From Escherichia phage Rtp: a DNA stretch of 46,219 nucleotides. The position numbers and the translations under genes are program-made. The stretch lies in the sequence record NC_007603.1. One strand, given 5' to 3'. How positions within the stretch are numbered: position 1 is the first letter of the stretch; each line of letters opens with the position of its first letter. The notes below the pieces were generated by a model, which was not told the DNA's origin, ran no database searches, and worked only from the letters and a program-made list of their open reading frames with translations. Below are positions 1 to 41,474 of this stretch, in pieces.

Positions 1-214
1 AGCAATATTGCTTCAGATGCAATGATGTTTTTGATTGTTGCGGGTTGAGCAATGAAGTGATGAGTGAGTGAATGAAAGATTGATGGACTATCATACAAGT
101 TGATTTTGATCCTAGCTGAGCCATTTTAAGCATACGCGTTATAAAGGTTATGCCGTGTAGATTAGTCCTTCCGCGGAAATTCATACACGCCGTACCACGC
201 CAAGTTACGCCATA

Positions 215-296
215 GTTACACTATAATATCTATATATAACAACCATTTAGTGTAATTATTATTATTATATATATTACTATGTATATCATGTATATC
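215..296. repeat. about 80-bp AT-rich repeat, copy A
   Basis: TTACACTATAATATCTATATATAACAACC...TTATTATTATTATATATATTACTATGTATATCATGTA aligns at roughly 85 percent with 28088-28170. Confidence 0.7.
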
Positions 297-5812: not shown

Positions 5813-6319
5813 ATGAGCAAAGCAGCATTAAAGATGGGTGAGGGAAATTTCAAGGCGCTCTACAACAAGAAGTATGGCGACATTGCTATGGTGGCAATCA
5901 ACCGCAAGTACACGCCTGAGGAGGTTTTCGATTTCGCCGTTCGATACTTCTCCTGGGCAGAGAGTGCAGCAATCAAGGCAGCCGAGACAGCGTCATTCCA
6001 GGGCGTAGTAACTGAACACCTCATACACAAGCCTCGAGTGTTCACCTTAACGGGTTTGGCGCTCTTCATGGGTGTTAACATCAATAGATTCGCTCGCTGG
6101 CGTACTGAGGCTGGATACTCTGATGTGATGGAATTCATTGATAACGTAATCTACGAGCAGAAATATCAGCTTGGTGTTGCAGGCATCATTAACTCCACCA
6201 TTGTTGGTAAAGAGTTGGGAATCGACAAGCCGCAGGAGATCACCATTAGCAATAACTCTACGGCTAACGATGTTGATAGCATGAAGGAAGCGCTTGAATC
6301 TGTGATTGGTAAGCTGTAG
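5813..6319 (+). CDS. putative terminase small subunit
   Basis: 168-aa ORF immediately upstream of the large terminase; SD AAGGAGG; extended -10 TGgTATAAT upstream; call by position and size only. Confidence 0.5.
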   Translation: MSKAALKMGEGNFKALYNKKYGDIAMVAINRKYTPEEVFDFAVRYFSWAESAAIKAAETASFQGVVTEHLIHKPRVFTLTGLALFMGVNINRFARWRTEAGYSDVMEFIDNVIYEQKYQLGVAGIINSTIVGKELGIDKPQEITISNNSTANDVDSMKEALESVIGKL

Positions 6320-6364
6320 CACTTTTTGTTAAAAGAAGAGGCCCAATCAATGAGATAATGGGCC
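6317..6364 (+). promoter_or_regulatory. palindrome-promoter cassette (variant TAGCACTTTTTGTTAAAA)
   Basis: TAG shared with the terS stop; 22-bp spacer; GATAAT 6354-6359 inside inverted repeat GGCCCA/TGGGCC. Confidence 0.45.
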
Positions 6365-6387
6365 CAATGAAATAACGAGGTGATGAT

Positions 6388-6864
6388 ATGAATTGGCATG
6401 ATATTTTTGATTATGATGGATGTAATTTATACAGAAGGGATTCTGGAAAAAAGGCTGGAACAAAAGCGGGCCCTAGAGGTTACATTCAGTGCAGAGTTGG
6501 TGGTGGACTACCTAAGGTTTATGCTCACAGGATTATATGGGAGATGCACAATGACAAGATACCTAACAGCATGGTTGTTGACCACATTAACCACATATAC
6601 GACGACAATAGAATTGAAAACCTAAGGTTAGTAACAGTTAAGGAAAATTCTAGCAACATTAAGAGATCAAAGAGAAATACAAGTGGCATACAAGGAGTTA
6701 GGAGAAGGAGTGATAACGGAAATTGGTACGCGGACTTAAGAGTTGATGGAAAGCTAAGGCAAATGCCAATGCGACATTGCTTTGAAGACGCAGCAGCCGA
6801 TAGGATATATCTTGAAGTGTACCACGGGTTTCATCCAAATCATGGAGCAATAGTAAATGAGTGA
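6388..6864 (+). CDS. HNH endonuclease with AP2 domain (homing endonuclease-like)
   Basis: HRIIWEMHNDKIPNSMVVDHINHIYDDNRIENLRLV motif; paralog of 21464..21979; sits between terS and terL. Confidence 0.8.
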   Translation: MNWHDIFDYDGCNLYRRDSGKKAGTKAGPRGYIQCRVGGGLPKVYAHRIIWEMHNDKIPNSMVVDHINHIYDDNRIENLRLVTVKENSSNIKRSKRNTSGIQGVRRRSDNGNWYADLRVDGKLRQMPMRHCFEDAAADRIYLEVYHGFHPNHGAIVNE

Positions 6865-8428
6865 CCTAATCGTATGGGATGAGCTGACTCACGCTGAGAA
6901 GATGGCTATAAAGGCCATCTCTGAGCATAGTTTCGAGGGATTCTTGCGTTGTTTCTTCCAGATAACTCAGGGTGAGAGATTTAAAATGAATTGGCATGCG
7001 AAATACCTTTGCCGCGTCATAGATGAGATTCTTGAGGGTAAGAGAAAGGACACCATCATAAACGTAGCTCCTGGGTCAGCCAAAACCGAACTGTTTAGCA
7101 TCCATTTCCCTGTTTATAGCATGATTAAGATTAAGAAGGTTAGGAATCTTAGCTTGTCGTTCTCTGACTCACTTGTTAAGCGCAACTCCAAGCGCGTCCG
7201 CGACCTGATTAAGTCAAAAGAGTTTCAGGAACTTTGGCCATGCTCCTTTGGAACATGCAGGGATGACGAGATTCAGGTTCTGGATGAGAATGGTAAAGTT
7301 AGATTTGAGTCTATATCTAAGGCAATGGCGGGACAGGTGACGGGAAGCAGGGGTGGCTACATGACCGATGATTACAGTGGTTGCATAATGCTGGATGACC
7401 CGCTAAAACCTGATGATGCGCTGAGTAATGTAAGGAGGGAGGCTGTCAACATGCTTCTCAAGAACACAATTCGCTCGCGTCGCGCTAGCTCGGTAAAAGG
7501 GAAGGAAACGCCAATAATTGCTGTGCAGCAAAGACTTCATGTTCTGGATACTAGCCACTTCATGGAGTCAGGACAAATGGGCATCAAGTTCGATGTGGTG
7601 AAAGTTCCTGCCATAGTCACGGAGGATTACGCCGACACGCTTCCTGATTGGATCAAACAACAATTTATTGATGATGTTCTTTCATCACCATTTGTAGAGC
7701 GGGATGGGGTTAAGTATTACAGCTATTTTCCAGCAAAGGAATCAATAGAAGACTTAATGGCCATGCGAGACGCTGACCCTTACACATTCCTTAGTCAGTA
7801 CGCTCAAGAACCCGTAGCGCTTGGTGGCAATCTTATTAACGTGGATTGGTTCCAGCGCCTTAGTGATACATTCAGACCTCCAGCTAAGTACGATTATAGA
7901 TTCATAACTTGCGACACGGCGATGACTACAAAGAGTTATAGCGACTTCTCTGTACTCCAGTTGTGGGGCTATAAGGACGCTAAGATTTACCTGATAGACC
8001 AGCGCAGGGGTAAGTGGGAAGCTCCGGAGTTGGAAGCTGAACTGCTGGATTTCGAGAAGAAATCAAGGTCAACCAGTCAGTCAGATGGCATCCTTAGAAA
8101 GATTATTATCGAGAAGAAAGCATCCGGCATCGGACTCATTCAGTCGGCAGGAAGGGTAATGCGAACACCCATAGAGCCATACGTACCTGATAACGACAAG
8201 CTAACCAGGGTAATGAGCGCACTGCCGCAGATTAAGGCTGGCAATGTAGTTCTTCCAGAATCAGCGCCGTGGTTAAGCGGATTGCTTACTGAGATTGCAG
8301 CTTTTACGGCAGATGACTCGCATAAGCACGATGACCAAATTGACTGTCTAACAATGGCAATCAACCTGGTACTTAACATTGCCGATGATCCTAAGGCTCG
8401 ACTAATGCGCATAGCTGGAATGAAATAG
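6857..8428 (+). CDS. terminase large subunit
   Basis: 523 aa; N-terminal ATPase region and C-terminal nuclease-like region (ITCDTAMTT...DFSVLQLWG), typical terminase architecture. Confidence 0.85.
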   Translation: MSDLIVWDELTHAEKMAIKAISEHSFEGFLRCFFQITQGERFKMNWHAKYLCRVIDEILEGKRKDTIINVAPGSAKTELFSIHFPVYSMIKIKKVRNLSLSFSDSLVKRNSKRVRDLIKSKEFQELWPCSFGTCRDDEIQVLDENGKVRFESISKAMAGQVTGSRGGYMTDDYSGCIMLDDPLKPDDALSNVRREAVNMLLKNTIRSRRASSVKGKETPIIAVQQRLHVLDTSHFMESGQMGIKFDVVKVPAIVTEDYADTLPDWIKQQFIDDVLSSPFVERDGVKYYSYFPAKESIEDLMAMRDADPYTFLSQYAQEPVALGGNLINVDWFQRLSDTFRPPAKYDYRFITCDTAMTTKSYSDFSVLQLWGYKDAKIYLIDQRRGKWEAPELEAELLDFEKKSRSTSQSDGILRKIIIEKKASGIGLIQSAGRVMRTPIEPYVPDNDKLTRVMSALPQIKAGNVVLPESAPWLSGLLTEIAAFTADDSHKHDDQIDCLTMAINLVLNIADDPKARLMRIAGMK

Positions 8429-8468
8429 CACAAATTGCTAAACAATGAGGCCACGGATGGCGTATATT
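8426..8468 (+). promoter_or_regulatory. palindrome-promoter cassette
   Basis: TAGCACAAATTGCTAAA shares TAG with the terL stop; 22-bp spacer; TATATT 8463-8468. Confidence 0.5.
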
Positions 8469-8499
8469 TACCTTACACAAACGAGAGGAGAAAAGACAA

Positions 8500-8856
8500 A
8501 TGGCACGCACTTCAAAGGCTGTATATCTTGGCAACAACGATGATGTGTATTATGGTTTCACCGTAGGTAAGGAATATGAGATTGTATCGTATACTGGTGA
8601 TGACCTCATTCTGATCGCTGATGATGATGGCGAATGCCGTGGCATCAATAACGGGGCATTCCACAAGTTCGAACTCTCAGAAACAGAATGCGCAGCCGCA
8701 GCCACTGGCAATAATAAAAGACCAGATCTCAGATATTACATAAACGGACATGAGGTTGATTTACTTGAGTTTGACAAAGTTCGCTCTCACACCCTTGAGC
8801 TTGCCCACCTAGGCGTAAAATGCGACACAATAAAGTTCGAGGTAAAATTCGAGTAA
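8500..8856 (+). CDS. hypothetical protein (118 aa), moron-like insert between terL and portal
   Basis: Own cassette promoter upstream, own terminator downstream; SD GAGAGGAG. Confidence 0.6.
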   Translation: MARTSKAVYLGNNDDVYYGFTVGKEYEIVSYTGDDLILIADDDGECRGINNGAFHKFELSETECAAAATGNNKRPDLRYYINGHEVDLLEFDKVRSHTLELAHLGVKCDTIKFEVKFE

Positions 8857-8877
8857 CCACAAAAGCTATGATAAACT

Positions 8878-8899
8878 AGCCCCTACATGGGGCTTTTTT
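8878..8899 (+). terminator. rho-independent terminator
   Basis: AGCCCC-TACAT-GGGGCT hairpin plus T6, directly followed by ATTGGAGAAA SD. Confidence 0.6.
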
Positions 8900-8912
8900 A
8901 TTGGAGAAAAAC

Positions 8913-10181
8913 ATGGTCAAGACAGACAGCTACGCCAATATCTTTCTCGGCGGTAGTGATGGTAGTGAGATTTACGGGAGCTTGCAGAACCAGGCTCCTA
9001 CAATTCTGGCTTCGCTATATGCGGACAATGCTCTGGTGCGTCGAATCATCGACACAATCCCGGAGACAGCATTGGCGGCAGGATTCCATATTGACGGCAT
9101 TGATGACGAACCTGCATTCTGGTCGAGATGGGATGATTTGGAGATGACGCAGAATATCAACGATGCCTGGTCATGGGCCAGATTGTTCGGTGGGGCTGCT
9201 ATTGTCGCTATCGTCAAGGACAATAGAGCATTAACAAGCCCCGTCAGAGAAGGTGCCGAGCTTGAAACCGTTCGCGTTTACGACCGCACGCAAGTAAAAG
9301 TACAAACTCGCGAGGAGAATCCACGCAACGCGCGCTTTGGTGAGCCACTAACCTATCGCATCACAACTAATGAGAGCGATATGTTCTATGATGTTCATTA
9401 CAGCCGCATTCATATCATCGATGGCGAGCGAATCCCTAACGTAATGCGTCGGCAAAATGACGGCTGGGGCCGTAGCGTTCTATCCAGTGACATTCTTGAC
9501 TCAATCAAGGATTACACCAACTGTGAACGACTTGCTACGCAATTACTGAAACGTAAGCAGCAAGCGGTATGGAAAGCTAAAGGTCTGGCTGAACTGTGTG
9601 ATGATAGCGAAGGATTTGGTGCAGCAAGATTACGCCTGGCCCAGGTTGACAACAATAGCGGTGTTGGTCAGGCGATTGGCATTGACGCAGAATCTGAAGA
9701 GTACAGCGTTCTAAACTCTGATATTGGCGGGATTGATGCGTTTCTGGATAAGAAGTTTGACAGAATAGTCGCCCTGAGCGGTATTCATGAAATCATCCTG
9801 AAGAACAAGAACGTTGGTGGCGTGTCATCAAGCCAGAATACGGCGCTAGAGACATTCCACAAGCTGGTTGACCGCAAGCGCAATGCTGAGTTGCTCCCTA
9901 TTCTTGAATTCTTGATCCCGTTCATCGTGAACGCAGAAGAGTGGTCAGTTGAGTTTAATCCGTTGGCTCAGGAATCAAGTAAGGATAAGGCCGAGATTCT
10001 TGAGAAGAACGTAAACAGCATTGCGGCACTAATTGCAGCAGGCGCTATGGATATCGACGAGGCTCGTGATACACTACGAACTATAGCCCCAGAGGTTAAG
10101 ATCAATGATGGTTCAGTAGAGACAGAGGTGACAATTAGTGAAACCAGTAACGACCCGTTGGAAGTACCCACAGACGATTGA
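8913..10181 (+). CDS. portal protein
   Basis: About 422 aa, immediately after the terminase block; start trimmed from TTG 8901 to ATG 8913 (GGAG 6 nt upstream). Confidence 0.75.
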   Translation: MVKTDSYANIFLGGSDGSEIYGSLQNQAPTILASLYADNALVRRIIDTIPETALAAGFHIDGIDDEPAFWSRWDDLEMTQNINDAWSWARLFGGAAIVAIVKDNRALTSPVREGAELETVRVYDRTQVKVQTREENPRNARFGEPLTYRITTNESDMFYDVHYSRIHIIDGERIPNVMRRQNDGWGRSVLSSDILDSIKDYTNCERLATQLLKRKQQAVWKAKGLAELCDDSEGFGAARLRLAQVDNNSGVGQAIGIDAESEEYSVLNSDIGGIDAFLDKKFDRIVALSGIHEIILKNKNVGGVSSSQNTALETFHKLVDRKRNAELLPILEFLIPFIVNAEEWSVEFNPLAQESSKDKAEILEKNVNSIAALIAAGAMDIDEARDTLRTIAPEVKINDGSVETEVTISETSNDPLEVPTDD

Positions 10182-10866
10182 GAGCCAGGTTAACCGCAAT
10201 CTCAGTATTGCGGTAACTGAGTTAATTTCGGCAATGAGGGAGTCTGCAACAAGGCTTAAAATTGATACTGCAGAGGAGCTTGAGCAAGAGGATGGATACC
10301 TTGACGGGATAATTGCGGCGCTGGTGGCGTCATTTATATCAACCATCCCAGCTATAGGGGCAGCAATATACAGATACAATAGTTCGCAATTTCTTGTTCT
10401 TGCAATCAAGACTGGAGGGAGGTCTAATCCTAGCGTTCTAGACCTTGAAGTTAACGGAATAAATGGCGATGAGCCGTGGTATAATGATGACCTCAAGAAG
10501 TGGATTTACACCACGGATAAGTCAGCCAGAAAACTGCTAAACAACATCAAGGATGATTTCTTACAGACGACTGCAACAATACAGAATGGTGACTACGTTA
10601 AGCTATCTGACAGGTACAAAATCTACAGGAAGCGAACGGCAAACATTGCTTCTGGGATTGTTTCAAGCCTAAACTCGACGCTTATGAGGCGCAGGCTTGA
10701 GGATGCTGGTGTTAGCCGTTATATCTGGCATGGCATGCTAGATGAGAGGGAGCGCCAATCACACATAGCAAGAGAAGGCCTTAGCTTTAAACTTGGTGGG
10801 GCAGATATATTTCCGGGCCAAGAGTATGGCTGTCGTTGCTGGTCAGTTCCAGATTGGGAATCATAA
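10138..10866 (+). CDS. head morphogenesis protein (Mu F / SPP1 gp7-like minor head protein)
   Basis: Position after portal; C-terminal HIAREGL...GCRCWSVP motif; GTG start with SD AGAGGTGA; overlaps the portal 3' end. Confidence 0.55.
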   Translation: MKPVTTRWKYPQTIESQVNRNLSIAVTELISAMRESATRLKIDTAEELEQEDGYLDGIIAALVASFISTIPAIGAAIYRYNSSQFLVLAIKTGGRSNPSVLDLEVNGINGDEPWYNDDLKKWIYTTDKSARKLLNNIKDDFLQTTATIQNGDYVKLSDRYKIYRKRTANIASGIVSSLNSTLMRRRLEDAGVSRYIWHGMLDERERQSHIAREGLSFKLGGADIFPGQEYGCRCWSVPDWES

Positions 10867-16297: not shown

Positions 16298-16303
16298 ATT
16301 GCA

Positions 16304-16346
16304 TAGCACTTTTTGCTAAAGCGCTTATTAAAATTTGCTGTATATT
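16304..16346 (+). promoter_or_regulatory. palindrome-promoter cassette inside the tail module
   Basis: TAGCACTTTTTGCTAAA; 22-bp spacer; TATATT 16341-16346; leader TACCTTATCGAAACGAAA. Confidence 0.5.
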
Positions 16347-16379
16347 TACCTTATCGAAACGAAATGAGAGATTAAAGAA

Positions 16380-16766
16380 ATGAAAGCAATCATCGCAATT
16401 ATGGCAACCTTGTTACTTGCTGGATGCAACTCAGATAAAGTAAAGACACTCAACGTTGACCTCACTGCAAACGAATGCAAGAACATCGTATACAACGCAA
16501 CGGTTAACAATGAATCATTTACTCATATTTCATTCAAATACCCAGATCTAAAGGATGCCGTTATGTACGTATCGCACATTGAATGCACGAAAACTGTTAG
16601 CAACTTTACACGTGGTGTTGTGATTGAGCGCACTGCAACATTGGCAAAGGTATCAAAGCCTAGTGACGCTTCAATTGAGATGGTTTATACTAAGCTCTAC
16701 AGTTTAGAAGGTTTCGCTAAGGAAGTTGGCGAGAAGCTGGCTTACTCACGCGTTGTTATGAAATAA
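16380..16766 (+). CDS. putative lipoprotein (128 aa), moron within the tail gene cluster
   Basis: Signal peptide with lipobox LAGC (MKAIIAIMATLLLAGCNSD); own cassette promoter upstream. Confidence 0.6.
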   Translation: MKAIIAIMATLLLAGCNSDKVKTLNVDLTANECKNIVYNATVNNESFTHISFKYPDLKDAVMYVSHIECTKTVSNFTRGVVIERTATLAKVSKPSDASIEMVYTKLYSLEGFAKEVGEKLAYSRVVMK

Positions 16767-20605: not shown

Positions 20606-20627
20606 AGCCCCATTAGGGGCTTTTTTT
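20606..20627 (+). terminator. rho-independent terminator
   Basis: AGCCCC-ATTA-GGGGCT plus T7, followed by ATTGGAGAAA SD (same arrangement as at 8878). Confidence 0.6.
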
Positions 20628-20640
20628 ATTGGAGAAATAT

Positions 20641-21396
20641 ATGTTAAGTCCAAAGTTTGAAAATCAGTTGCAAAGTCTTTTCCCTGGCGAGATTGTGACT
20701 CTAATCCAGGTAGACGGGACGGCGTTTGGCTCTCTCGTTTACAACTTCCACAATGAAAACATTTCATATACACCAGAAGAAATAATGCTGGCCCAAATGA
20801 ATGGCGAGCCACTACCAGAGAAGATAATCACATTTCGCGGAGAAGAGTATGGCCCAAGACCTTTCGGTATCTCTGGTATAAATATGACTTCTGACGGCAA
20901 GGCTAACAAGGTCACGTTGACAGTATCAAACGTAGACCAGAGAATTAGCGCACTTATCCGCACCTACAATGGATTGGTTAAAGCAAAGGTTACTATCTGG
21001 ATTACTACGCGCGATAACATCAATGAGGATGGAAGCATTGCCGATGGTGACTATCGCCGATTCGTTTACTTCATTGAGAGACCAAAGCAAGTTGATTACA
21101 AGACGGCATCATTTGAGCTTAGCAGTCCGATGGATATGGATGGTATCTACATTCCTGCGCGACTTGTTCAGTCTGTTTGCTATTGGGCGTCAAGGGGGTG
21201 GTATCGCAGCGGTAATGGCTGCGACTACGCTGGTAATCGTTATTTTGACAAGGATGACAATCCAGTTAATGACCCCTCCTTAGACTTCTGCGCCGGAACT
21301 GTTAATAGCTGCAAGATTAGATTCGGCGAGAATAACCAGCTTTCATTTGGTGGATGCGCGGCTGCAAGCCTGCAAGCTAAAGCTAATCAATCATAG
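20641..21396 (+). CDS. minor tail protein (lambda L-like)
   Basis: C-terminal cysteine cluster (C..C..C..C) as in gpL Fe-S proteins; ORF track 20629 trimmed to ATG 20641 with GGAG SD. Confidence 0.75.
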   Translation: MLSPKFENQLQSLFPGEIVTLIQVDGTAFGSLVYNFHNENISYTPEEIMLAQMNGEPLPEKIITFRGEEYGPRPFGISGINMTSDGKANKVTLTVSNVDQRISALIRTYNGLVKAKVTIWITTRDNINEDGSIADGDYRRFVYFIERPKQVDYKTASFELSSPMDMDGIYIPARLVQSVCYWASRGWYRSGNGCDYAGNRYFDKDDNPVNDPSLDFCAGTVNSCKIRFGENNQLSFGGCAAASLQAKANQS

Positions 21397-21441
21397 CACT
21401 TATTGCTAAGAGGATAGCTCAATATTGCGCTATCCTATAAT
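21394..21441 (+). promoter_or_regulatory. palindrome-promoter cassette (27-bp spacer variant)
   Basis: TAGCACTTATTGCTAAG shares TAG with the L stop; inverted repeat GGATAGC/GCTATCC; TATAAT 21436-21441. Confidence 0.45.
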
Positions 21442-21463
21442 CTCTTAAATTGGGGGTTAAAAT

Positions 21464-21979
21464 ATGAATTGGCATGATTACTTTAGATATGAAGACGGCA
21501 AGTTATACTGGATTAGCTTTCCAAACCCAGAGCAGACAAGGAGCGTAAAGATAGGAGATGTTGCTGGATACAAACACCCTGACAACAAGGGTTACATTAG
21601 GGTTCAAGTTATGGGTAAGATGCTAAGGGTCCATCGCGTGATATGGGAAATGCATAACGGAAAAATACCAGAAGGCATGGAGATTGACCACATAAATGGG
21701 ATTAGATCAGACAACAGAATTGAAAACCTAAGAATTGTTAATGGTCTTGAGAACATGAAAAATAAGGGGATTTATAAAAACAACAAAACTGGATTTGTTG
21801 GGGTTGAGAAAATTAAAGCAAACGGAAAGTACAGGGCAAGCATAAGAGTTAATAAAAAACTTATTTTTCTAGGTGAGTATATTTCAATTGAAGATGCCAT
21901 TGACGCTAGAAAGAAAGCTGAATGTGAATACCTTTTCCATAAGAATCACGGAGTTAGAAATGCTTACACCAAAAGTTAA
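21464..21979 (+). CDS. HNH endonuclease with AP2 domain (homing endonuclease-like), paralog of 6388..6864
   Basis: HRVIWEMHNGKIPEGMEIDHINGIRSDNRIENLRIV motif; inserted between L-like and K-like tail genes. Confidence 0.8.
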   Translation: MNWHDYFRYEDGKLYWISFPNPEQTRSVKIGDVAGYKHPDNKGYIRVQVMGKMLRVHRVIWEMHNGKIPEGMEIDHINGIRSDNRIENLRIVNGLENMKNKGIYKNNKTGFVGVEKIKANGKYRASIRVNKKLIFLGEYISIEDAIDARKKAECEYLFHKNHGVRNAYTKS

Positions 21980-28000: not shown

Positions 28001-28087
28001 TCGTATACACGTAACCGATGTAACTCGATGTATACAATCTCATCCGCGGAAAATGATATACGCGCTGTTACGCTAATTTACGCATTG

Positions 28088-28170
28088 GTTACATTAAAAT
28101 ATCTATATATATCAACCTTTTACTCTTATTATTATTATTATATATATTACTGTGTATATCATGTAACTAC
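28088..28170. repeat. about 80-bp AT-rich repeat, copy B
   Basis: TTACATTAAAATATCTATATATATCAACC...TTATTATTATTATATATATTACTGTGTATATCATGTA; pairs with 215-296. Confidence 0.7.
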
Positions 28171-30394: not shown

Positions 30395-30826
<432 letters not shown>

Positions 30827-30829
30827 AGA

Positions 30830-30855
30830 TAAGGCCCCTTTCGGGGCCTTTTTTA
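30830..30855 (+). terminator. rho-independent terminator
   Basis: AGGCCCC-TTTC-GGGGCCT plus T6. Confidence 0.65.
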
Positions 30856-33738
30856 TTAAATCAATTTAACAGATCTTAACTCATTACCAGAAGTTGTAGA
30901 TATTGTTGTTGAACTAACTAACGTCCCAGACAATGCAAACGAAATAGCTCCAGTCGATGAGGATCTAGTAGCAAACCTTTGAGGTGAATCGCTTATAACA
31001 CTTATCTTATTTGCTGTAAAAGTATTAGAGCCAGAAAAACCAGTAGTTACAACCAAATCCTGATTGAGTCTAAATCCAAATCCAACAGTAACAGAGGTTG
31101 ACTCGCTCACAGGAATGTTAAGCCCATTTAGCCGCACACCTGAGATATCAAAGAAATCACAAGAAGAAAGAAGCGCCCTTCTTGAAATGCCTGTTGTTAT
31201 TGGTAGCGTACTCTGAGACTGTCCATTGAAGTTACATACAAATCTTGTGTTAATGAAACTAATATCATGATTAACAGAGCCATCAACCGGAGAGGCCGTA
31301 TCAGATGTTGACTTAACAATACCGCCAACAAATTTTATTGCCACAGGTCCATTTGGGTCTGAACCATAGTAAGCTCTAAGCCTTTCAACATTACAATTAA
31401 CCATGTAATAGCTCCCCCTCTGGTTTGTCTCAAATATAGGGTATCTCGAGCTTCCGACAGGTGAAGAGAGATCATATATAGAAACGTTAGGGTTATGAAG
31501 ACTGTTAGCACCCATGAAAACGATATTATTTGATAAAATCCCCTTTATACTTATGTTGGTAGTAAACCTTCCAGTCAATGAGCTTTCAGAATTTGTCATG
31601 TCCGAGAATGGCCCCTTAAACCTTGAAAAATCAATAGTAAGCCCCAAGCTAGCAGATGATGGGAAAGCCGACATGTTAACATCTGATATTGAAACGTCAG
31701 AAGGGAAAAGCAGCGCACCATCTCTACTTGAGTAGAATAAATTACCAGGATGAGAACTGTAGCTTCCTGACTTGAAGTTAAGGCCCTTAATCCTAACTGA
31801 GTTAAACAGAGTGCTCTTTATTGGTGAGCCAGCTACAGGTCCATTTCCTTCATAAGAAATTCCATTTATCAAACCCGTCCCGGTCAGGCCAGTACTTCTT
31901 GTGCCTGTAAAAGTAATGTTATCCATGTAAAGGTTTCCGTCAAAGAAACCTCCAGCGTCTGCCCTTGTTGTTATGATATTCCCATTCGTATATCTAGACG
32001 CATTAAATGCACTATCCCTTATATGCAAATCGCCAAGACCAGTAACAACAACACCACGGGCACCGATATTGCAGTTTTCAATCTTAAGGTAGTTATGGAA
32101 AGGCATGTGAAAGTCAATTCTACTTAGATCACAATTTTCAAAAGTTACGTTTGCGCAGTTGTTACTACCATTTGCGCCCCATCCTTTACCGTTAACCCTT
32201 GCGTTCATAATCCTTACGTTCATTGATTCACCTATTGATAAGGCGTATGAGTAAAGCTCACCAGAAGAATCTCTTGCGTCTGCAACAGACTCGGCAAAAA
32301 GACCATCAACTGTGATATCATATGAGTTAGCTATTGCCAACCTTGTATCGCTAAACCCTTGTGTTATCGGCTTGTTAATAAAAGAAATATCTTTTATTGA
32401 CAACCTTGTAGAATTATTAACATAAACTATCTGATACCGTGTCGAAAGACTTTCATCTATAGTTAAACCCTTGATTTCCTGAGTTGTCTTGTTTATCTTC
32501 AAGGCTCTAACTGATGTAACATTATTTCCAAGATCATACTTCAGTGAGTTCTCCAGATAACCCCTATTGTAAACCCTATTGAGTTCAATTCTTTTCTGAA
32601 CAGAATCCCTATATGTGTACATGTCCTGATTTGTATAAAAAACAATAAAACAACCATCAAGGTCACGATTTTCAGATATAGAGTCGAACAAATTACTTCC
32701 AGCAGTTCTTGATTCATTAGACATGGAGTTAAAAGATGAAACAACAGATGACGAAGCGTCATAAGTTGTAGGTTCCCCGTTGGTTATAGTTATCTGCCCG
32801 GTCCATGAGGATGATGGTTTTATAACAGAGCCTGTAAAATCAGCACTCAATGAACCAATATCAATATAATCGGAACCAGAAACAAGAAAAACACCATCAT
32901 TCTGCTTTATCTTTAGATTTTTGGATTTTGCGTAGTTTATCGCTCGATTTATACCTGAAATATCATTAGTAATACCATCTCCAACACACCCAAAATCATA
33001 GAAACTAACATAACCTTTAGATCCTAGCTCAGACCACGAAGAATCACCAATCCCACCAGAAGAATATGGTGTCGAGTTTTCCGGGACTGTCTTAGGTAGA
33101 TCTCCCATCCATACGTATGACTTTGGCTTACCGGAGTCAAGCCATATCATTTGTTGATTTCTTGACTCTATTACACCTCCGGACTCAAATGATGAAATTA
33201 AGGCACCAGATAATGATTCCGCATAACCCCGTGCAGCTTGTTCTGATGACATTGCTAATCCAGCACTCGCTGCAGCAGAAGCCATATCACCTGCTACCTG
33301 GGCAGCATTCTGCGCAACCTGTGATGACATGTTTACAACATCGCCATACTGATTGTTAACCTGTGTTACTTTAGATTCAAAATCATTAAAGTCAAAGTTG
33401 TTAAATACATCAACTGCATCAGCAACCTCAGTTTCACGTGACTGATAGTAACGAAGAGTCTCAGCAACATCTTGAGCTAATCCCTGAACGGTAATCCCAT
33501 CATGAGCAAGAATAGCGTAACCAGTTCCAGCAGGAACAGTTTCAGAATTAGGGTTATAAACATTAATCTGCGTATCGCTGATGATCTCAGAGATGGTGTA
33601 AATTTTTACTGGCTCAGTTTTAAATACAATGGTGGCACCTACGCGAATCAGTGTAAGCGGTGCTTTCCATGTTGTCCCGACACCAGTCACCTCGCCGTTT
33701 GCAGCTAATGATGCGGATCCCAAGTCATAAATTGCCAT
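30856..33738 (-). CDS. lateral tail fiber / tailspike with right-handed beta-helix (pectate-lyase-like) domain
   Basis: About 960 aa; FYDFGCVGDGITNDISGINRAINYA resembles the pectate-lyase/tailspike N-cap motif; ORF track GTG 33768 trimmed to ATG 33738. Confidence 0.7.
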   Translation of the reverse strand: MAIYDLGSASLAANGEVTGVGTTWKAPLTLIRVGATIVFKTEPVKIYTISEIISDTQINVYNPNSETVPAGTGYAILAHDGITVQGLAQDVAETLRYYQSRETEVADAVDVFNNFDFNDFESKVTQVNNQYGDVVNMSSQVAQNAAQVAGDMASAAASAGLAMSSEQAARGYAESLSGALISSFESGGVIESRNQQMIWLDSGKPKSYVWMGDLPKTVPENSTPYSSGGIGDSSWSELGSKGYVSFYDFGCVGDGITNDISGINRAINYAKSKNLKIKQNDGVFLVSGSDYIDIGSLSADFTGSVIKPSSSWTGQITITNGEPTTYDASSSVVSSFNSMSNESRTAGSNLFDSISENRDLDGCFIVFYTNQDMYTYRDSVQKRIELNRVYNRGYLENSLKYDLGNNVTSVRALKINKTTQEIKGLTIDESLSTRYQIVYVNNSTRLSIKDISFINKPITQGFSDTRLAIANSYDITVDGLFAESVADARDSSGELYSYALSIGESMNVRIMNARVNGKGWGANGSNNCANVTFENCDLSRIDFHMPFHNYLKIENCNIGARGVVVTGLGDLHIRDSAFNASRYTNGNIITTRADAGGFFDGNLYMDNITFTGTRSTGLTGTGLINGISYEGNGPVAGSPIKSTLFNSVRIKGLNFKSGSYSSHPGNLFYSSRDGALLFPSDVSISDVNMSAFPSSASLGLTIDFSRFKGPFSDMTNSESSLTGRFTTNISIKGILSNNIVFMGANSLHNPNVSIYDLSSPVGSSRYPIFETNQRGSYYMVNCNVERLRAYYGSDPNGPVAIKFVGGIVKSTSDTASPVDGSVNHDISFINTRFVCNFNGQSQSTLPITTGISRRALLSSCDFFDISGVRLNGLNIPVSESTSVTVGFGFRLNQDLVVTTGFSGSNTFTANKISVISDSPQRFATRSSSTGAISFALSGTLVSSTTISTTSGNELRSVKLI

Positions 33739-33803
33739 TGTGTAAAGTCTCCATTTGTAAAATAGCACGAATTGCTAAGTTGGATTGTAGCATCTTTCAG
33801 GCA

Positions 33804-33828
33804 TAAAAAAACCTCCCGAGGGAGGTTA
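33804..33828 (-). terminator. rho-independent terminator (minus strand)
   Basis: Minus-strand CCTCCC-TCG-GGGAGG plus T7, overlapping the primase stop. Confidence 0.6.
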
Positions 33829-34749
33829 GTTTAGCAAGTCTTTGGCTTTGTACACTTTCTTGCGTATTCCTGTTTTGAATGACTTCCCGTCATTAGGTAT
33901 CACCACATCAACATTGCGATCATCAGCGGCAATAAGTATATCAGTATCACAATCGCGGCAAGCAACCCTAAACTTCCTTGACCTGTCGCGGTGGATGACC
34001 ATTTCCACGTTGTAAGAGGAGAAAGCAACAAACACTTCGCGACCACCTGTAGCCAAGTGAACACGTACACCATCAATAAAATTATCGACAATATAAGTAT
34101 AGCTACCATCCTGCTTAGAACCAATAACGGAAACAGAATCACGTGTGTAATCACCAGCAAGGAATTTAACATTTGAATCTCCATCAATAAACATTAAGTT
34201 GCAGAACTCATCACCAAGACCATCCTCGTAAACCATTGAGCAGGGTACGGCATGAATCATTGAGCCATCCTTAGCTATGCCAACATCGAATCCATCATCA
34301 AGATAAATACCTTCATATGTTGTGAGTGGGCTTGATTCAACTCTTACAGTCCGATCCATGACTTCAAGAACTTTTTCATGATCTACCTGTGCGCCCATTT
34401 TGTAACGCTGAGTCCTTGATGCTTGCTTATTTGCCTTATTAACCACCTCTACAGGGATAAGGTTTAACCACTCACCGAGAACATCTATACATTCACTGAA
34501 TGACTCCCCCCTCATCTTTTGTAACCACAGAATTCCATCGCCTGAGCCACACTGGTTGCAGATAATGCCACCATCACCTTCTTTGCTAACCTTGTTAGTC
34601 CATCGTGCTCGGTCGTTTCCTCCACAATAAATACATGGCTGATGCTTTTTGGTCTGGAAGAATTTTGGGTCTGCGCCGCAGATATTGATAAGTGCCTTAT
34701 CCCACAGGCCGCGCATTCTTGGTAAAACCTCTTTCTTATCGTAGTGCAT
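33826..34749 (-). CDS. putative DNA primase (zinc-ribbon type)
   Basis: N-terminal CIYCGG-x-DR...C-x-QCG-x-GDG zinc-binding motif resembling P4-type primase zinc ribbons. Confidence 0.5.
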   Translation of the reverse strand: MHYDKKEVLPRMRGLWDKALINICGADPKFFQTKKHQPCIYCGGNDRARWTNKVSKEGDGGIICNQCGSGDGILWLQKMRGESFSECIDVLGEWLNLIPVEVVNKANKQASRTQRYKMGAQVDHEKVLEVMDRTVRVESSPLTTYEGIYLDDGFDVGIAKDGSMIHAVPCSMVYEDGLGDEFCNLMFIDGDSNVKFLAGDYTRDSVSVIGSKQDGSYTYIVDNFIDGVRVHLATGGREVFVAFSSYNVEMVIHRDRSRKFRVACRDCDTDILIAADDRNVDVVIPNDGKSFKTGIRKKVYKAKDLLN

Positions 34750-34807: not shown

Positions 34808-35281
34808 TTACTCTTTAGCTTTTCGTGCTGCCTCATTAGCGGCCTTGATCTTTCTCCATGAACGACACTCTGGTTTGGTTGCTAACTCGGACTCAGTAAC
34901 CACACGCAGCATGTGACGCTTCTTGCACCGTAATGTCAGCGGCTTTCCGTTGCCGTCGAATTGCAGGTCTGGTCGGCAGAATGTAGCGCGAAAACCTTCT
35001 CCATTTCGCTTGTAGTAGTTGTGAGAAAGCTGAGCGCCGCGAGCAGATATCATTCCACGCTTAAACCATTCCTCTACAGCCTGTGGTGTTACCTTTAACT
35101 GCTTTGCGATATTCGCCTTTGTGCCGAAGAAATCAAGAACAATCTCCAGTCGCGCGCGCAACCCTGCCCTTACTTCATCTTTCAAAACGTAGTAACCTGA
35201 AGGTCGTTTTCGTTGTTTTTTGTCTTCAGTGCGGACAGTTCCGTTATTACCGTTGATTGTTCTCTTGTCGACTGTATTCAT
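34808..35281 (-). CDS. putative HTH DNA-binding protein
   Basis: IAKQLKVTPQAVEEWFKRG resembles a Cro/C1-type helix-turn-helix; basic N-terminus. Confidence 0.5.
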   Translation of the reverse strand: MNTVDKRTINGNNGTVRTEDKKQRKRPSGYYVLKDEVRAGLRARLEIVLDFFGTKANIAKQLKVTPQAVEEWFKRGMISARGAQLSHNYYKRNGEGFRATFCRPDLQFDGNGKPLTLRCKKRHMLRVVTESELATKPECRSWRKIKAANEAARKAKE

Positions 35282-39258: not shown

Positions 39259-40395
39259 ATGGCAACTGCAAAGATTACTAACGAGCAGCTTCTTGAAGAA
39301 CTAGCAAACGGCATGACAAACAAGGCAATCGCAGAGAAGTACGGAATGAACATTCGCAACGTTGAATTGCGTCGTAGTAAACTGGCGAAGAGTGGAGAAT
39401 TGCACGGAAACCCGGGCATCAAGAAGTTAGTTCCTGACGGTTATTTGGTTAAGGGAACCTCCACGATGATTGATGCTGATGGTAACGAAAAGCTGCGCTG
39501 GGTTAAAACATCTGTAGATAATGAGAGACTTGAGGTTTTAATGGAGCAAGCTCGCGAGGCATTTTGCTCTGATTTGCCAAAGGCTACTCCATCTGAATCA
39601 CCTAATGTTAACTTTGATGATAACACGCTTGCGATGTATCCAGTTTTTGATTTGCACATTGGGGCGATGGCTCACAAACATGAGTGCGGCGAAAACTATG
39701 ATACAGCAACAGCAGAGAAGGTTATGAATGGGTTCTTTGACTACGCTGTAGATAAGGCGCCAAACTCTAAGAATGCTGTATTGGTATTGGGTGGCGATTT
39801 CCTGCATTACGACTCCCTGGAGGCTAAAACCCCGGCCTCAGGCCATATCTTAGATTCTGACAGTCGTTACGCCAAGATTGTTTATGTTGCAATCCGCTCG
39901 GTCAGGCGTGCAATTTCTCGAATGATGGAAAAGCATCAAGTTATTGATATTAAAGTAATAAGTGGGAATCACGACGAGGCAGGAATGGTTTGGCTCCGCG
40001 CTGCACTTGCTGCGTTTTATGAAGATGAGCCTCGCGTAAATGTTGATATTAGCCCTGCCGCAATGATGATGACCAGCTTTGGAACTACGCTTATTGGATA
40101 CACTCACGGGCACCAAATGCGGAAAGCCGATACTAGACTAACTGTTATGGCAACTGATTTTCGTAAGTTATTTGGTCAAAGTGAGTATGTTTACACACAT
40201 AGTGGCCACTGGCATTCGCAGAAGATTACAGAAACAAACTTGGGAATTGATGAGGTTCATGGTCAGCTTGGAAGTCCAGACGCATACTCTGCTAATGGTG
40301 GGTGGCGCTCACAAAGACAGGCTGCGGTAATCGTCTACCACAAAGAATTTGGTGAAGTTGGACGATTTATTTGCCGCCCTAAAATGTTTAGCTAA
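39259..40395 (+). CDS. metallophosphoesterase (calcineurin-like) with N-terminal HTH-like region
   Basis: DLHIG (DxH), GGDFLHYD (GDxxD) and GNHDE motifs in canonical order. Confidence 0.6.
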   Translation: MATAKITNEQLLEELANGMTNKAIAEKYGMNIRNVELRRSKLAKSGELHGNPGIKKLVPDGYLVKGTSTMIDADGNEKLRWVKTSVDNERLEVLMEQAREAFCSDLPKATPSESPNVNFDDNTLAMYPVFDLHIGAMAHKHECGENYDTATAEKVMNGFFDYAVDKAPNSKNAVLVLGGDFLHYDSLEAKTPASGHILDSDSRYAKIVYVAIRSVRRAISRMMEKHQVIDIKVISGNHDEAGMVWLRAALAAFYEDEPRVNVDISPAAMMMTSFGTTLIGYTHGHQMRKADTRLTVMATDFRKLFGQSEYVYTHSGHWHSQKITETNLGIDEVHGQLGSPDAYSANGGWRSQRQAAVIVYHKEFGEVGRFICRPKMFS

Positions 40396-40438
40396 TAGCA
40401 CTTTTTGCCTAACTCATGCCGTAAAAATGCGGCATAAT
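40396..40438 (+). promoter_or_regulatory. palindrome-promoter cassette
   Basis: TAGCACTTTTTGCCTAA; inverted repeat ATGCCG/CGGCAT in the 22-bp spacer; CATAAT. Confidence 0.45.
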
Positions 40439-40468
40439 CACCAAATCTAAACAAACGAGGATTCAATC

Positions 40469-40642
40469 ATGGTTAAATTGTTTTGCATTAAGAACGCATC
40501 TAAGACACTTCCGTTCACTGAGGATAAGCCATATAGCGGTGAGTATCAGGGTGACGGATACTACAAAATTTATGGTGACGACATGACGTGTATTCTTGCG
40601 CCGATTGATGGTTCGCTTGTTGAATTTATTATCGAAGATTAG
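40469..40642 (+). CDS. small ORF (57 aa)
   Basis: ATG 40469 with SD ACGAGGA; followed by a strong terminator. Confidence 0.4.
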   Translation: MVKLFCIKNASKTLPFTEDKPYSGEYQGDGYYKIYGDDMTCILAPIDGSLVEFIIED

Positions 40643-40988: not shown

Positions 40989-41474
40989 ATGAAGCAGAAG
41001 CTAGTGGTTGGTGCTGCGACCGCTGCGGCAATATACATCGCAGCGCCGCTTATTGAGCTTGTTGAAGGCGTAGAGAATAAGCCATACATGGATATTGCTG
41101 GAATCCCTACAGTTTGCGCCGGCGTTACTGGCCCTGACGTGGTTTGGGGAAAGAATTACAGCAATAGAGAGTGCCGAAAACTTCTAGAGAAGCACATTCA
41201 GATTCATGGCAAGTATGTTGAGGATGCAGTTACCTACCCAATTGCACCTCAGACGAGAGCGGCCTTAATCAGCTTTAGCTATAACGTTGGCGGCTCCTCG
41301 ATGAGGAAATCTACGGCTGTAAGGCTAATCAACCAGGGCAAAGTGGAGCAAGGTTGTAAGGCTTTGGGTCTTTGGAATAAAGCTACCGTTAATGGCAGGA
41401 AGGTTGTGGTTAAGGGGTTGGTGAATCGCAGGAATGAGGAGATTAAGTTATGCTTAAGTGGATTGCAGCGTTAG
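40989..41474 (+). CDS. SAR endolysin (phage lysozyme, P21 R-like)
   Basis: N-terminal signal-anchor-release segment VVGAATAAAIYIAAPLI followed by a lysozyme-like catalytic region resembling P21 R as recalled. Confidence 0.75.
   Translation: MKQKLVVGAATAAAIYIAAPLIELVEGVENKPYMDIAGIPTVCAGVTGPDVVWGKNYSNRECRKLLEKHIQIHGKYVEDAVTYPIAPQTRAALISFSYNVGGSSMRKSTAVRLINQGKVEQGCKALGLWNKATVNGRKVVVKGLVNRRNEEIKLCLSGLQR

What the first reader, a model, noticed from the sequence alone, without database searches (positions are those of the whole stretch)
8426..8899. Independently transcribed gene wedged between terminase and portal
ORF 8500..8856 (118 aa, no recognisable motif) has its own cassette promoter (8426-8468, overlapping the terL stop) and its own terminator (8878-8899). 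The terL-portal junction is normally tight, so this is a likely accessory insertion of unknown function (candidate host-takeover or anti-defence protein).
Basis: inference. Interest (0 to 1): 0.5.

Follow-up and report, generated by a model that had tools for sequence, protein, structure and literature searches.

The report
Optional fast-evolving gene in phage Rtp
A small gene between the DNA-packaging and portal genes of coliphage Rtp is a real but dispensable, fast-evolving add-on, driven by a promoter repeat used about 20 times in this genome; what its protein does is still unknown.

Summary
The window is coliphage Rtp (Drexlerviridae). ORF 8500-8856 is real and belongs to a narrow family, PHROG 14592. 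The "cassette promoter" is real: it is one of 20 copies (0.22 expected) of the 21-nt repeat aaATAGCACnnnTTGnTAAAA already described in phage TLS. In 16 of the 20 copies a -10-like hexamer sits at a fixed offset. The hairpin 8878-8894 is real, but it is not private to this ORF: T1, BEK6 and others have the same hairpin directly after terL with no ORF. Portal starts 13 nt after the T-run, so it needs read-through.

The gene is accessory. The slot is filled or empty even within one genus. Family members also occupy two tail-gene junctions. The protein evolves about ten times faster at non-synonymous sites than terL or portal (dN/dS 0.45-0.6 against 0.03-0.09), with similar dS.

The model shows an SH3-like N-domain, a disordered linker, and a conserved 44-aa C-domain with no informative structural neighbour. 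I found no experiment behind the "virion structural protein" label and no evidence for anti-defence.

Verdict: an ordinary moron-like accessory cassette of unknown function.

The parts
6857..8428 (+). terL (large terminase), the upstream neighbour. Its stop codon TAG (8426-8428) lies inside the promoter repeat.
   Evidence: Pfam Terminase_6C and PHROG 38.
8425..8445 (+). 21-nt direct repeat ATAGCACAAATTGCTAAACAA, the upstream element of the recurrent promoter module. It contains the short dyad TAGCA-N5-TGCTA.
   Evidence: 20 copies in the window against 0.22 expected. It is the same element as the TLS repeat aaATAGCACnnnTTGnTAAAA (PMC11447400).
8463..8468 (+). -10-like hexamer TATATT, 38 nt from the repeat start.
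   Evidence: The same offset is seen in 16 of 20 repeat copies, across an unconserved 17-nt spacer. Promoter activity was not measured.
8469..8499 (+). Conserved leader (TACCTTACACAAACGAGAGGAG...) with the Shine-Dalgarno AGGAG at 8486-8490.
   Evidence: Read from the sequence. The leader is shared with other module copies and with family members in other slots.
8500..8856 (+). Accessory ORF of 118 aa, 13.3 kDa, pI 4.8, with no signal peptide or transmembrane segment.
   Evidence: PHROG 14592 at E 1.4e-47. 100% identical to the Rtp protein P0001.
8512..8682 (+). N-terminal SH3-like beta-barrel domain (residues 5-61).
8683..8724 (+). Variable, indel-rich, disordered linker (residues 62-75).
   Evidence: pLDDT below 50 for residues 63-74. 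Length variation is visible in alignment A2.
8725..8853 (+). Conserved 44-aa C-terminal beta-beta-alpha-beta domain, ending in the near-invariant GVKCDTIKFEVKFE.
8430..8866 (+). The 437-nt segment that is absent from empty-slot relatives. It is bounded by the microhomology AAATAGC (8423-8429) and AAAAGC (8861-8866).
   Evidence: Alignment with BEK6 and the junction sequences.
8878..8899 (+). Resident terL-portal intrinsic terminator: stem AGCCCC/GGGGCT, loop TACAT, then a T-run. The upstream A-tract TGATAAAC can pair with the T-run.
   Evidence: It is present without the ORF in T1 (annotated terminator 10545-10573), BEK6 and 12210I.
8913..10181 (+). Portal gene, the downstream neighbour. The likely start is ATG 8913, with GGAG at 8903-8906, rather than the TTG at 8901 given in the ORF list.
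   Evidence: Pfam Phage_portal_3 at E 9e-70. Relatives' portal genes start at the aligned ATGGTCAAGAC.

Best explanation
The ORF is a dispensable, self-expressing accessory gene cassette of T1-like phages.

Shown at the sequence level:
- A 437-nt unit sits between the terL stop codon and the terminator that separates terL from portal throughout the family. The unit consists of a 21-nt repeat, a spacer, a -10 hexamer, a conserved leader with RBS, and the ORF.
- Relatives have this slot either filled or empty.
- Diverged paralogues with the same type of promoter module occupy two other junctions, between tail genes M and L and between L and K.
- The protein accumulates amino-acid changes about ten times faster than its neighbours, at equal synonymous divergence.

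Inferred:
- Transcription starts a few bases downstream of 8468, from a promoter type that in T1 serves almost only non-structural genes. It ends, leakily, at 8878-8899. Read-through also feeds portal.
- The cassette is gained, lost and relocated by recombination at the repeated promoter and terminator-RBS blocks, as PeSL cassettes are in T4-type phages.

Protein mechanism (inference, about 0.45 within this explanation): a soluble, acidic, intracellular adaptor. Its conserved C-domain would oligomerise or dock on a conserved partner. Its weakly constrained SH3-like domain would bind a variable protein target of the host or of competing elements. Which target that is remains unknown.
For: - Identity of the window and gene.
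- Empty slots.
- Filled slots in Braunvirinae and Rogunavirinae.
- Both states within Veterinaerplatzvirus.
- Three slots, always with a 67-74 nt gap to the upstream stop codon and the same strand as the neighbours.
- Two paralogues in AugustePiccard.
- Shared promoter-module subtype and shared TAAACTAG-hairpin-TTTTTTATTGGAG block across slots.
- Repeat statistics and fixed -10 geometry.
- The repeat has been described in TLS with its function stated as open.
- T1's repeat copies lie almost entirely in the non-structural arms.
- In Rtp's structural block the repeat precedes only non-core genes, namely two HNH genes, this ORF and an ORFan.
- dN/dS of 0.45-0.62 against 0.03-0.09, with similar dS.
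- Confident two-domain fold, pI 4.8, no transmembrane segment.
- Narrow family of about 35 clusters of 100-140 aa among 1.84 billion representatives.
Against: - Promoter activity, the transcription start site and expression timing were never measured. The sigma-70 score alone is at chance level.
- No region shows dN/dS above 1, so an arms-race role is not demonstrated.
- All three slots lie in the structural region, which would equally fit a virion-associated role.
- The slot survey rests on about 15 inspected contexts plus BLAST coverage patterns. It is not a census.
- The paralogues in the tail slots are only about 25-30% identical to the Rtp protein, so any relocation is ancient. Its mechanism is inferred only from the shared flanking blocks, which could be conserved for function rather than through recombination.
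- The terminator is not part of the mobile unit, so this is not a textbook moron.
Confidence: 0.7

Rival explanations
1. It is an optional virion component, such as a decoration, neck or tail accessory protein. The invariant C-terminal domain would anchor it to a conserved structural protein. The variable SH3-like domain would be exposed, as with the dispensable decoration proteins Hoc or pb10.
For: - All known slots lie inside the head or tail gene block, on the same strand as the neighbours.
- The architecture is a conserved C-end plus a variable N-domain.
- The tail-slot paralogues have distinct C-termini, for example GVSVFIDFEV in place of GVKCDTIKFEVKFE.
- The database labels read 'virion structural protein' and 'putative minor outer capsid protein'.
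Against: - The labels are re-annotations laid over 'hypothetical protein'.
- Virion proteomics of Rogue1 and of four Jk06-like phages list 3 and 7 proteins, and none lies at this position. These were gel-band or limited shotgun analyses, however.
- The family profile hits no PDB chain, although T1-like portal and neck structures exist. T1 itself lacks the gene.
- Phages with 94-97% identical portal proteins do without it.
- It is driven by the promoter type that in T1 serves non-structural genes.
Confidence: 0.25
2. It is an assembly or packaging helper that acts on terminase or portal, comparable in position to lambda gpW between A and B. It would not itself be a stable virion component.
For: In most members it lies between terL and portal. 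It is small, acidic and soluble.
Against: - It is absent from many close relatives with near-identical terL and portal.
- Paralogues sit between tail genes.
- It evolves fast while its supposed partners are highly conserved.
- The comparison with lambda gpW is from memory and rests on position only.
Confidence: 0.08
3. The cassette matters mainly in cis. Its promoter adds transcription that reads through the leaky hairpin into portal and the head genes. The ORF would be a weakly selected passenger.
For: Portal has no room for its own promoter, because its ATG lies 13 nt after the T-run. The ORF's dN/dS of 0.45-0.6 indicates weak constraint. The phiEB49 copy is frameshifted between the two domains.
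Against: - The ORF is intact in nearly all of the roughly 60 members seen.
- The C-terminal 14 residues are nearly invariant, with dN/dS 0.19.
- The fold is confidently predicted.
- Empty-slot phages express portal without the cassette.
Confidence: 0.07

Closest known systems
Morons of lambdoid and HK97-type phages (autonomous promoter-gene-terminator units between genes that are adjacent in relatives; definition from my own knowledge of Juhala/Hendrix 2000)
   Same: It lies between two genes that are adjacent in related phages. It is preceded by its own promoter-like module. It is non-essential, judging from natural empty sites.
   Different: The terminator is resident rather than brought by the insert. 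Base composition is not deviant (GC 43.7% against 44.3%). The host phage is virulent, so there is no prophage expression. The promoter is the phage's own recurrent module rather than a foreign one.
PeSL mobile regulatory cassettes of T4-type phages (PMC2839356, PMC4122927)
   Same: Short conserved promoter and stem-loop motifs are repeated many times in the genome. They flank non-essential ORFs, and they coincide with the insertions and deletions that distinguish close relatives.
   Different: It occurs in a different phage family and has a different motif. Here the promoter repeat and the hairpin are on opposite sides of the ORF, not fused into one composite. Recombination at the motifs and mini-circles have not been shown. 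Within the terL|portal slot, the ORF diverged in place (equal dS) rather than being swapped.
The 21-nt intergenic direct repeat of phage TLS, aaATAGCACnnnTTGnTAAAA (PMC11447400)
   Same: It has the same consensus and the same orientation with transcription. The distance to the start codon is the same: 75 nt here and about 76 nt in TLS. The authors note its presence in Rtp as an unpublished observation.
   Different: That paper leaves the function open, suggesting a stoperator, an enhancer site or an UP element. Here a fixed 38-nt offset to a -10-like hexamer in 16 of 20 Rtp copies favours a promoter-proximal role. No experiment has been done.
Standalone DUF7244 SH3 protein beside the Drexlerviridae lysis cassette (PMC13164509)
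   Same: It has an SH3-like fold. It is a 'shell' gene, present in only some Drexlerviridae. It is sometimes adjacent to an HNH endonuclease and is preceded by the same promoter repeat. In Rtp that gene is at 40469-40642, with a repeat copy at 40395.
   Different: The ORF studied here scores below the DUF7244 threshold (13.4-14.9 bits against 27; hhalign probability 10%). It has an extra linker and a 44-aa C-domain. It lies in the structural block, not beside the lysis genes.

Membership tests
PHROG 14592 ('virion structural protein') | Full-length sequence match to the family profile | tested here: met
   E 1.4e-47; residues 4-118 match profile positions 1-116 of 116.
PHROG 14592 ('virion structural protein') | Physical presence in virions, as the family name implies | not testable with these tools
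   I found no experimental support. The published proteomes list other proteins. No PDB chain matches the family profile. The RefSeq label overwrote 'hypothetical protein; gp50' in Sd1.
Moron | Inserted between genes that are adjacent in related phages | tested here: met
   terL and portal are adjacent in T1, BEK6, DTL and 12210I.
Moron | Own promoter | tested here: inconclusive
   A recurrent repeat plus a -10 hexamer at fixed geometry sits directly upstream. The sigma-70 score is only 9 of 12, which is chance level, and no transcript data exist.
Moron | Own terminator brought with the insert | tested here: not met
   The hairpin is present at the empty junction in T1, BEK6 and 12210I.
Moron | Base composition different from the surrounding genome | tested here: not met
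   GC is 0.437 against 0.443 for the window. GC3 is 0.43 against 0.50 for the neighbouring genes.
PeSL-type mobile regulatory cassette system | Conserved promoter and stem-loop motifs repeated through the genome and flanking non-essential ORFs | tested here: met
   There are 20 promoter repeats and repeated hairpin-RBS blocks (family D10 at 8879, 20607 and 30834). Inside the structural block the repeats precede only non-core genes.
PeSL-type mobile regulatory cassette system | Indels or replacements between close relatives are bounded by the motifs | tested here: met
   The BEK6 deletion runs from inside the repeat (ATAGC|) to just upstream of the hairpin block. HNH genes are inserted at repeat-bearing junctions in RobRod40 and AugustePiccard.
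PeSL-type mobile regulatory cassette system | Demonstrated recombination between motifs (mini-circles, swapped alleles) | tested here: inconclusive
   Equal dS of the ORF and its flanks argues against recent allele swapping at this slot. Shared module subtypes across slots are suggestive only. Mini-circles cannot be tested here.
Pfam DUF7244 (SH3 clan) | Score at or above the gathering threshold of 27 bits | tested here: not met
   13.4 bits for the full protein and 14.9 bits for the N-domain alone. hhalign probability against Rtp's true DUF7244 protein is 9.8%.
Pfam DUF7244 (SH3 clan) | SH3-like five-stranded barrel fold | tested here: met
Known anti-defence or defence-associated proteins | Sequence match to a catalogued family | tested here: not met
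   PADLOC gave 0 families at E up to 10. PADLOC holds defence systems, not anti-defence proteins, so this is a weak test.

The most novel reading that the evidence does not exclude
The 21-nt repeat promoters and the hairpin-RBS blocks of T1-like phages may form a PeSL-like shuffling system. That system would install small accessory genes at junctions of the otherwise fixed structural operon and express them on the non-structural (early-type) programme. Examples in Rtp are this SH3-plus-C-domain family, the HNH endonucleases and the ORFan at 16380. Under this reading, the present family would be a counter-defence adaptor: its conserved C-domain would dock on a conserved phage protein and its variable SH3-like domain would mask that protein from host immune sensors.
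Probability: 0.12. Interest if true: 0.7.

Novelty: new member of a known kind. Interest (0 to 1): 0.33.

Why it matters
This is a modest finding. The gene itself is an annotated Rtp ORF of unknown function, and its promoter repeat is already in the literature.

The useful additions are these:
- The terminator is resident, not the gene's own.
- The gene is optional even within a genus.
- Its family occupies three junctions of the structural operon.
- The 'virion structural protein' label has no traceable experimental basis.
- The repeat has a fixed -10 geometry. In Rtp's structural block it marks only accessory genes.

The last point bears on a question the TLS authors explicitly left open, namely what the 21-nt repeat does. 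It also gives a simple handle for finding accessory cassettes in Drexlerviridae. These phages are common fermentation contaminants and therapy candidates, and about half their genes have no assigned function.

Tried and rejected
- Allele replacement by recombination. I first read the contrast of 49% ORF identity with 97% for the flanking proteins as allele swapping. I rejected that for the Rtp, IME253, RobRod40 and AugustePiccard group, because the ORF's dS equals that of terL and portal.
- Positive selection. No region has dN/dS above 1. This was a coarse Nei-Gojobori estimate pooled over 10 pairs, so selection at individual sites is not excluded.
- PDB profile hits. 'Cake' and the designer PPR or TIM proteins are spurious repeat-protein matches in which no stretch passes on its own.
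- Pfam, NCBIfam and PADLOC gave nothing.
- The IMG/VR locus scan returned only 7 loci, too few for a census.
- The original Rtp genome paper could not be read.
- I found no paper with data on the BASEL homologues bas01_0005 or bas03_0004.
- Relatedness of the ORFan at 16380 to this family was rejected (hhalign probability 0.1%).
- A spurious ORF was rejected, given the conserved family, the RBS and the confident fold.
Full report
**What the window is.** The ORF's product is 100% identical over its full length to a protein from a 46,219-bp contig that NCBI names as Escherichia phage Rtp. The closest other records are Drexlerviridae of the subfamily Braunvirinae, such as IME253. The neighbourhood reads as follows:
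- terS, 5813-6319
- an HNH endonuclease, 6388-6864
- terL, 6857-8428
- the ORF, 8500-8856
- portal, 8913-10181
- a head-morphogenesis gene, 10138-10866

As a sigma-70 match the promoter is weak (9 of 12). Such matches are not enriched in this region: 14 were found against 10.0 +/- 2.6 in shuffles. The real evidence is different. Positions 8425-8445 are one of 20 copies of ATAGCACnnnTTGCTAAA in the window, against 0.22 expected by chance. In 16 of those 20 copies a -10-like hexamer lies exactly 38 nt from the repeat start, across an unconserved 17-nt spacer, and most of these hexamers match TATAAT at 5 or 6 positions. A conserved leader follows, and the start codon lies about 72-77 nt from the repeat start.

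This repeat is already published for phage TLS, as 'aaATAGCACnnnTTGnTAAAA'. TLS has 18 intergenic copies, about 76 nt upstream of start codons. The authors note that it is also seen in T1, Rtp and Rogue1, and they list its function as an open question (PMC11447400).

The hairpin at 8878-8894 plus its T-run is stable: dG is -17.2 kcal/mol and z is -4.2.

The terminator is not the ORF's own. T1 has terL, then an annotated rho-independent terminator, then portal, with no ORF between them. T1's hairpin-TTTTTATTGGAGGAAACATG block is the counterpart of Rtp 8878-8915. BEK6 reads AAATAGC|CGTGATAAACTAGCCCC...: the terL stop codon is followed directly by the same hairpin. The same holds for 12210I.

So the insert is the 437 nt from 8430 to 8866. 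It lies between the terL stop codon and a resident terminator, and it is bounded by the microhomology AAATAGC / AAAAGC. BEK6 retains the first five bases of the repeat. From this I infer that its empty site is a secondary deletion.

There is no terminator between terL and the ORF. The portal ATG lies 13 nt after the T-run, which leaves no room for a portal promoter. The hairpin must therefore be leaky, and the ORF's promoter probably also feeds portal (inference).

**Presence and absence.** tblastn finds homologues in 20 phage records, at 87% down to 32% identity. A further group (CEB_EC3a, SU57, ACG-M12, phiEB49 and the Opt phages) carries a diverged homologue between conserved flanks. Filled slots occur in both Braunvirinae and Rogunavirinae.

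Empty slots occur in these phages:
- T1
- BEK6, DTL, JeanPiccard, FP, Msk, BEK1-1 and A110b
- the 43-record group that shares vB_EcoS-12210I's match pattern; I inspected 12210I itself

Veterinaerplatzvirus contains both states. RobRod40 and AugustePiccard have an HNH endonuclease inserted between terL and the ORF, and the ORF keeps its own repeat module.

**More than one slot.** A profile search of 1.84 billion representative proteins found about 35 plausible clusters, all of 100-140 aa. Their genomic contexts fall into three slots:
- terL|portal: L006, L019 and L020
- tail-M|tail-L: L007 and P0068
- tail-L|tail-K: L008, L009, and L010 in AugustePiccard, which therefore carries two paralogues

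Every copy is on the same strand as its neighbours and starts 67-74 nt after the upstream stop codon. Across all three slots the copies share a promoter-module subtype (...ACGGATGGCGTATAgTTACC...AAACGAGAGGAG). They also share a 3' block (TAAACTAG-hairpin-TTTTTTATTGGAGnAAACATG).

In Rtp the L|K junction holds the second HNH gene, with a repeat copy at 21393. The M|L junction holds only the hairpin.

**What the promoter type suggests.** T1's 23 repeat copies lie almost entirely in the non-structural arms. In Rtp, the repeat copies inside the structural block precede only non-core genes:
- HNH at 6388
- this ORF
- HNH at 21464
- an ORFan at 16380-16766, which has no PHROG match and occurs in only three other phage records

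This suggests, but does not show, that the ORF is expressed on the non-structural programme.

**Evolution.** Amino-acid identities to Rtp:

| Phage | TerL | Portal | ORF |
|---|---|---|---|
| RobRod40 | 96.8% | 96.8% | 49% |
| CEB_EC3a | 82% | 89% | 32% |
| AugustePiccard | 81% | 95% | 55% |

I first read this contrast as allele replacement. The dN/dS analysis corrected that. For Rtp against IME253, RobRod40 and AugustePiccard, the ORF's dS is 0.13, 0.76 and 0.52. The corresponding portal values are 0.11, 0.82 and 0.73. What differs is dN/dS: 0.45-0.62 for the ORF against 0.03-0.09 for portal and terL.

By region, dN/dS runs from 0.19 at the C-terminal end to 0.66 in the helix, and none exceeds 1. 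So this is a weakly constrained protein diverging in place, with no demonstrated positive selection.

A localised patch that differs between Rtp and IME253 (residues 93-104) recurs in other members and hints at some intragenic mosaicism. The phiEB49 copy is frameshifted between the two domains.

**The protein.** It is 13.3 kDa with pI 4.8 (family median 4.8) and has no hydrophobic segment. AlphaFold2 gives the following picture:
- a five-stranded N-domain (residues 5-61)
- a disordered, indel-rich linker
- a beta-beta-alpha-beta C-domain, with pLDDT 95.7 when modelled alone

**The 'virion structural protein' label.** The label comes from PHROG 14592 and RefSeq re-annotation. In Sd1 it overwrote the depositor's 'hypothetical protein; gp50'. 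Virion proteomics of Rogue1 and of four Jk06-like phages identified 3 and 7 proteins. In the Jk06-like phages the 13.5-kDa protein found is ORF12/13, well downstream of portal (ORF04) and not the ORF before portal. T1-like portal structures exist in the PDB, but the family profile matches no chain, and T1 lacks the gene. A virion role is neither supported nor excluded.

**Conclusion.** The anatomy is that of a moron-like accessory cassette built from the phage's own recurrent regulatory modules. The closest described mechanism is PeSL-mediated shuffling in T4-type phages. The protein's function remains unknown. I rate an intracellular adaptor role as somewhat more likely than a virion accessory role. 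My grounds are the promoter type, the gene's dispensability beside near-identical structural proteins, and the negative proteomics. The margin is small, and the experiments listed under next steps would settle it.

Noticed in passing
window, 20 sites: 1367, 2359, 3077, 3459, 4027, 6316, 8425, 16303, 21393, 29628, 33762, 35294, 37795, 38478, 40395 on the + strand; 28001, 43850, 44966, 45919, 46160 on the - strand: A 21-nt repeat, ATAGCACnnnTTGCTAAA(nn), containing the dyad TAGCA-N5-TGCTA. A -10-like hexamer lies at a fixed +38 offset in 16 of the 20 copies, which puts the dyad centre near -42. That geometry recalls activator-dependent promoters. The candidate regulator is the 156-aa product of 34808-35281 (- strand), which matches PHROG 2856, 'transcriptional regulator'. 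The function of the repeat is a stated open question for TLS.
   Followed up: partly
window 16303-16766: An ORFan of 128 aa (16380-16766) with its own repeat-promoter. It lies between the major tail gene's terminator (16277) and the tail chaperone genes. It has no PHROG match and occurs in only three other phage records (RobRod40, MM01, AugustePiccard). It is unrelated to the family studied here.
   Followed up: partly
window 6316-6864 and 21393-21979: Two HNH_3 endonuclease genes, each behind a repeat-promoter. One lies between terS and terL and overlaps the terL start by 8 nt. The other lies at the tail L|K junction. Their 5' parts share 72-75% nucleotide identity (repeat families D13 and D15). 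In relatives, these same junctions host the SH3-plus-C-domain family or are empty.
   Followed up: partly
window 40395-40642: A true standalone DUF7244 SH3 gene of 57 aa (E 8.5e-29) behind a repeat-promoter, just upstream of the holin-like ORF and the endolysin (40989-41474). It matches the 'shell' SH3 gene reported for KanT1 and T1.
   Followed up: partly
L018 (phiEB49), about 2500-2830: The phiEB49 homologue is split by a frameshift between the N- and C-domains, near where CEB_EC3a has an A-run (AATAAAAAAAAGC). This could be a pseudogene, a homopolymer sequencing error or a slippage site. RefSeq still labels it a virion structural protein.
   Followed up: no
window 8895-8915: The portal ATG (8913) follows the terminator T-run by 13 nt, and its RBS (GGAG, 8903-8906) lies inside the conserved TTTTTTATTGGAG block. 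The same terminator-RBS block recurs at 20607-20641 and 30834-30868. Downstream structural genes therefore seem to depend on terminator read-through.
   Followed up: partly
window 33762-33830: A perfect copy of the repeat with no good -10 and no downstream ORF. It runs straight into a hairpin (CCTCCCGAGGGAGG) at the convergent end of the minus-strand genes. It may be an orphan or decayed module.
   Followed up: no
window 132-292 and 28005-28165: A 161-nt direct repeat at 76% identity, the two copies 27.9 kb apart (repeat family D4). Its function is unknown.
   Followed up: no
window 30725-30802: A CAG/CAA-rich tract, encoding a glutamine-rich run, near the 3' end of ORF 30395-30826.
   Followed up: no
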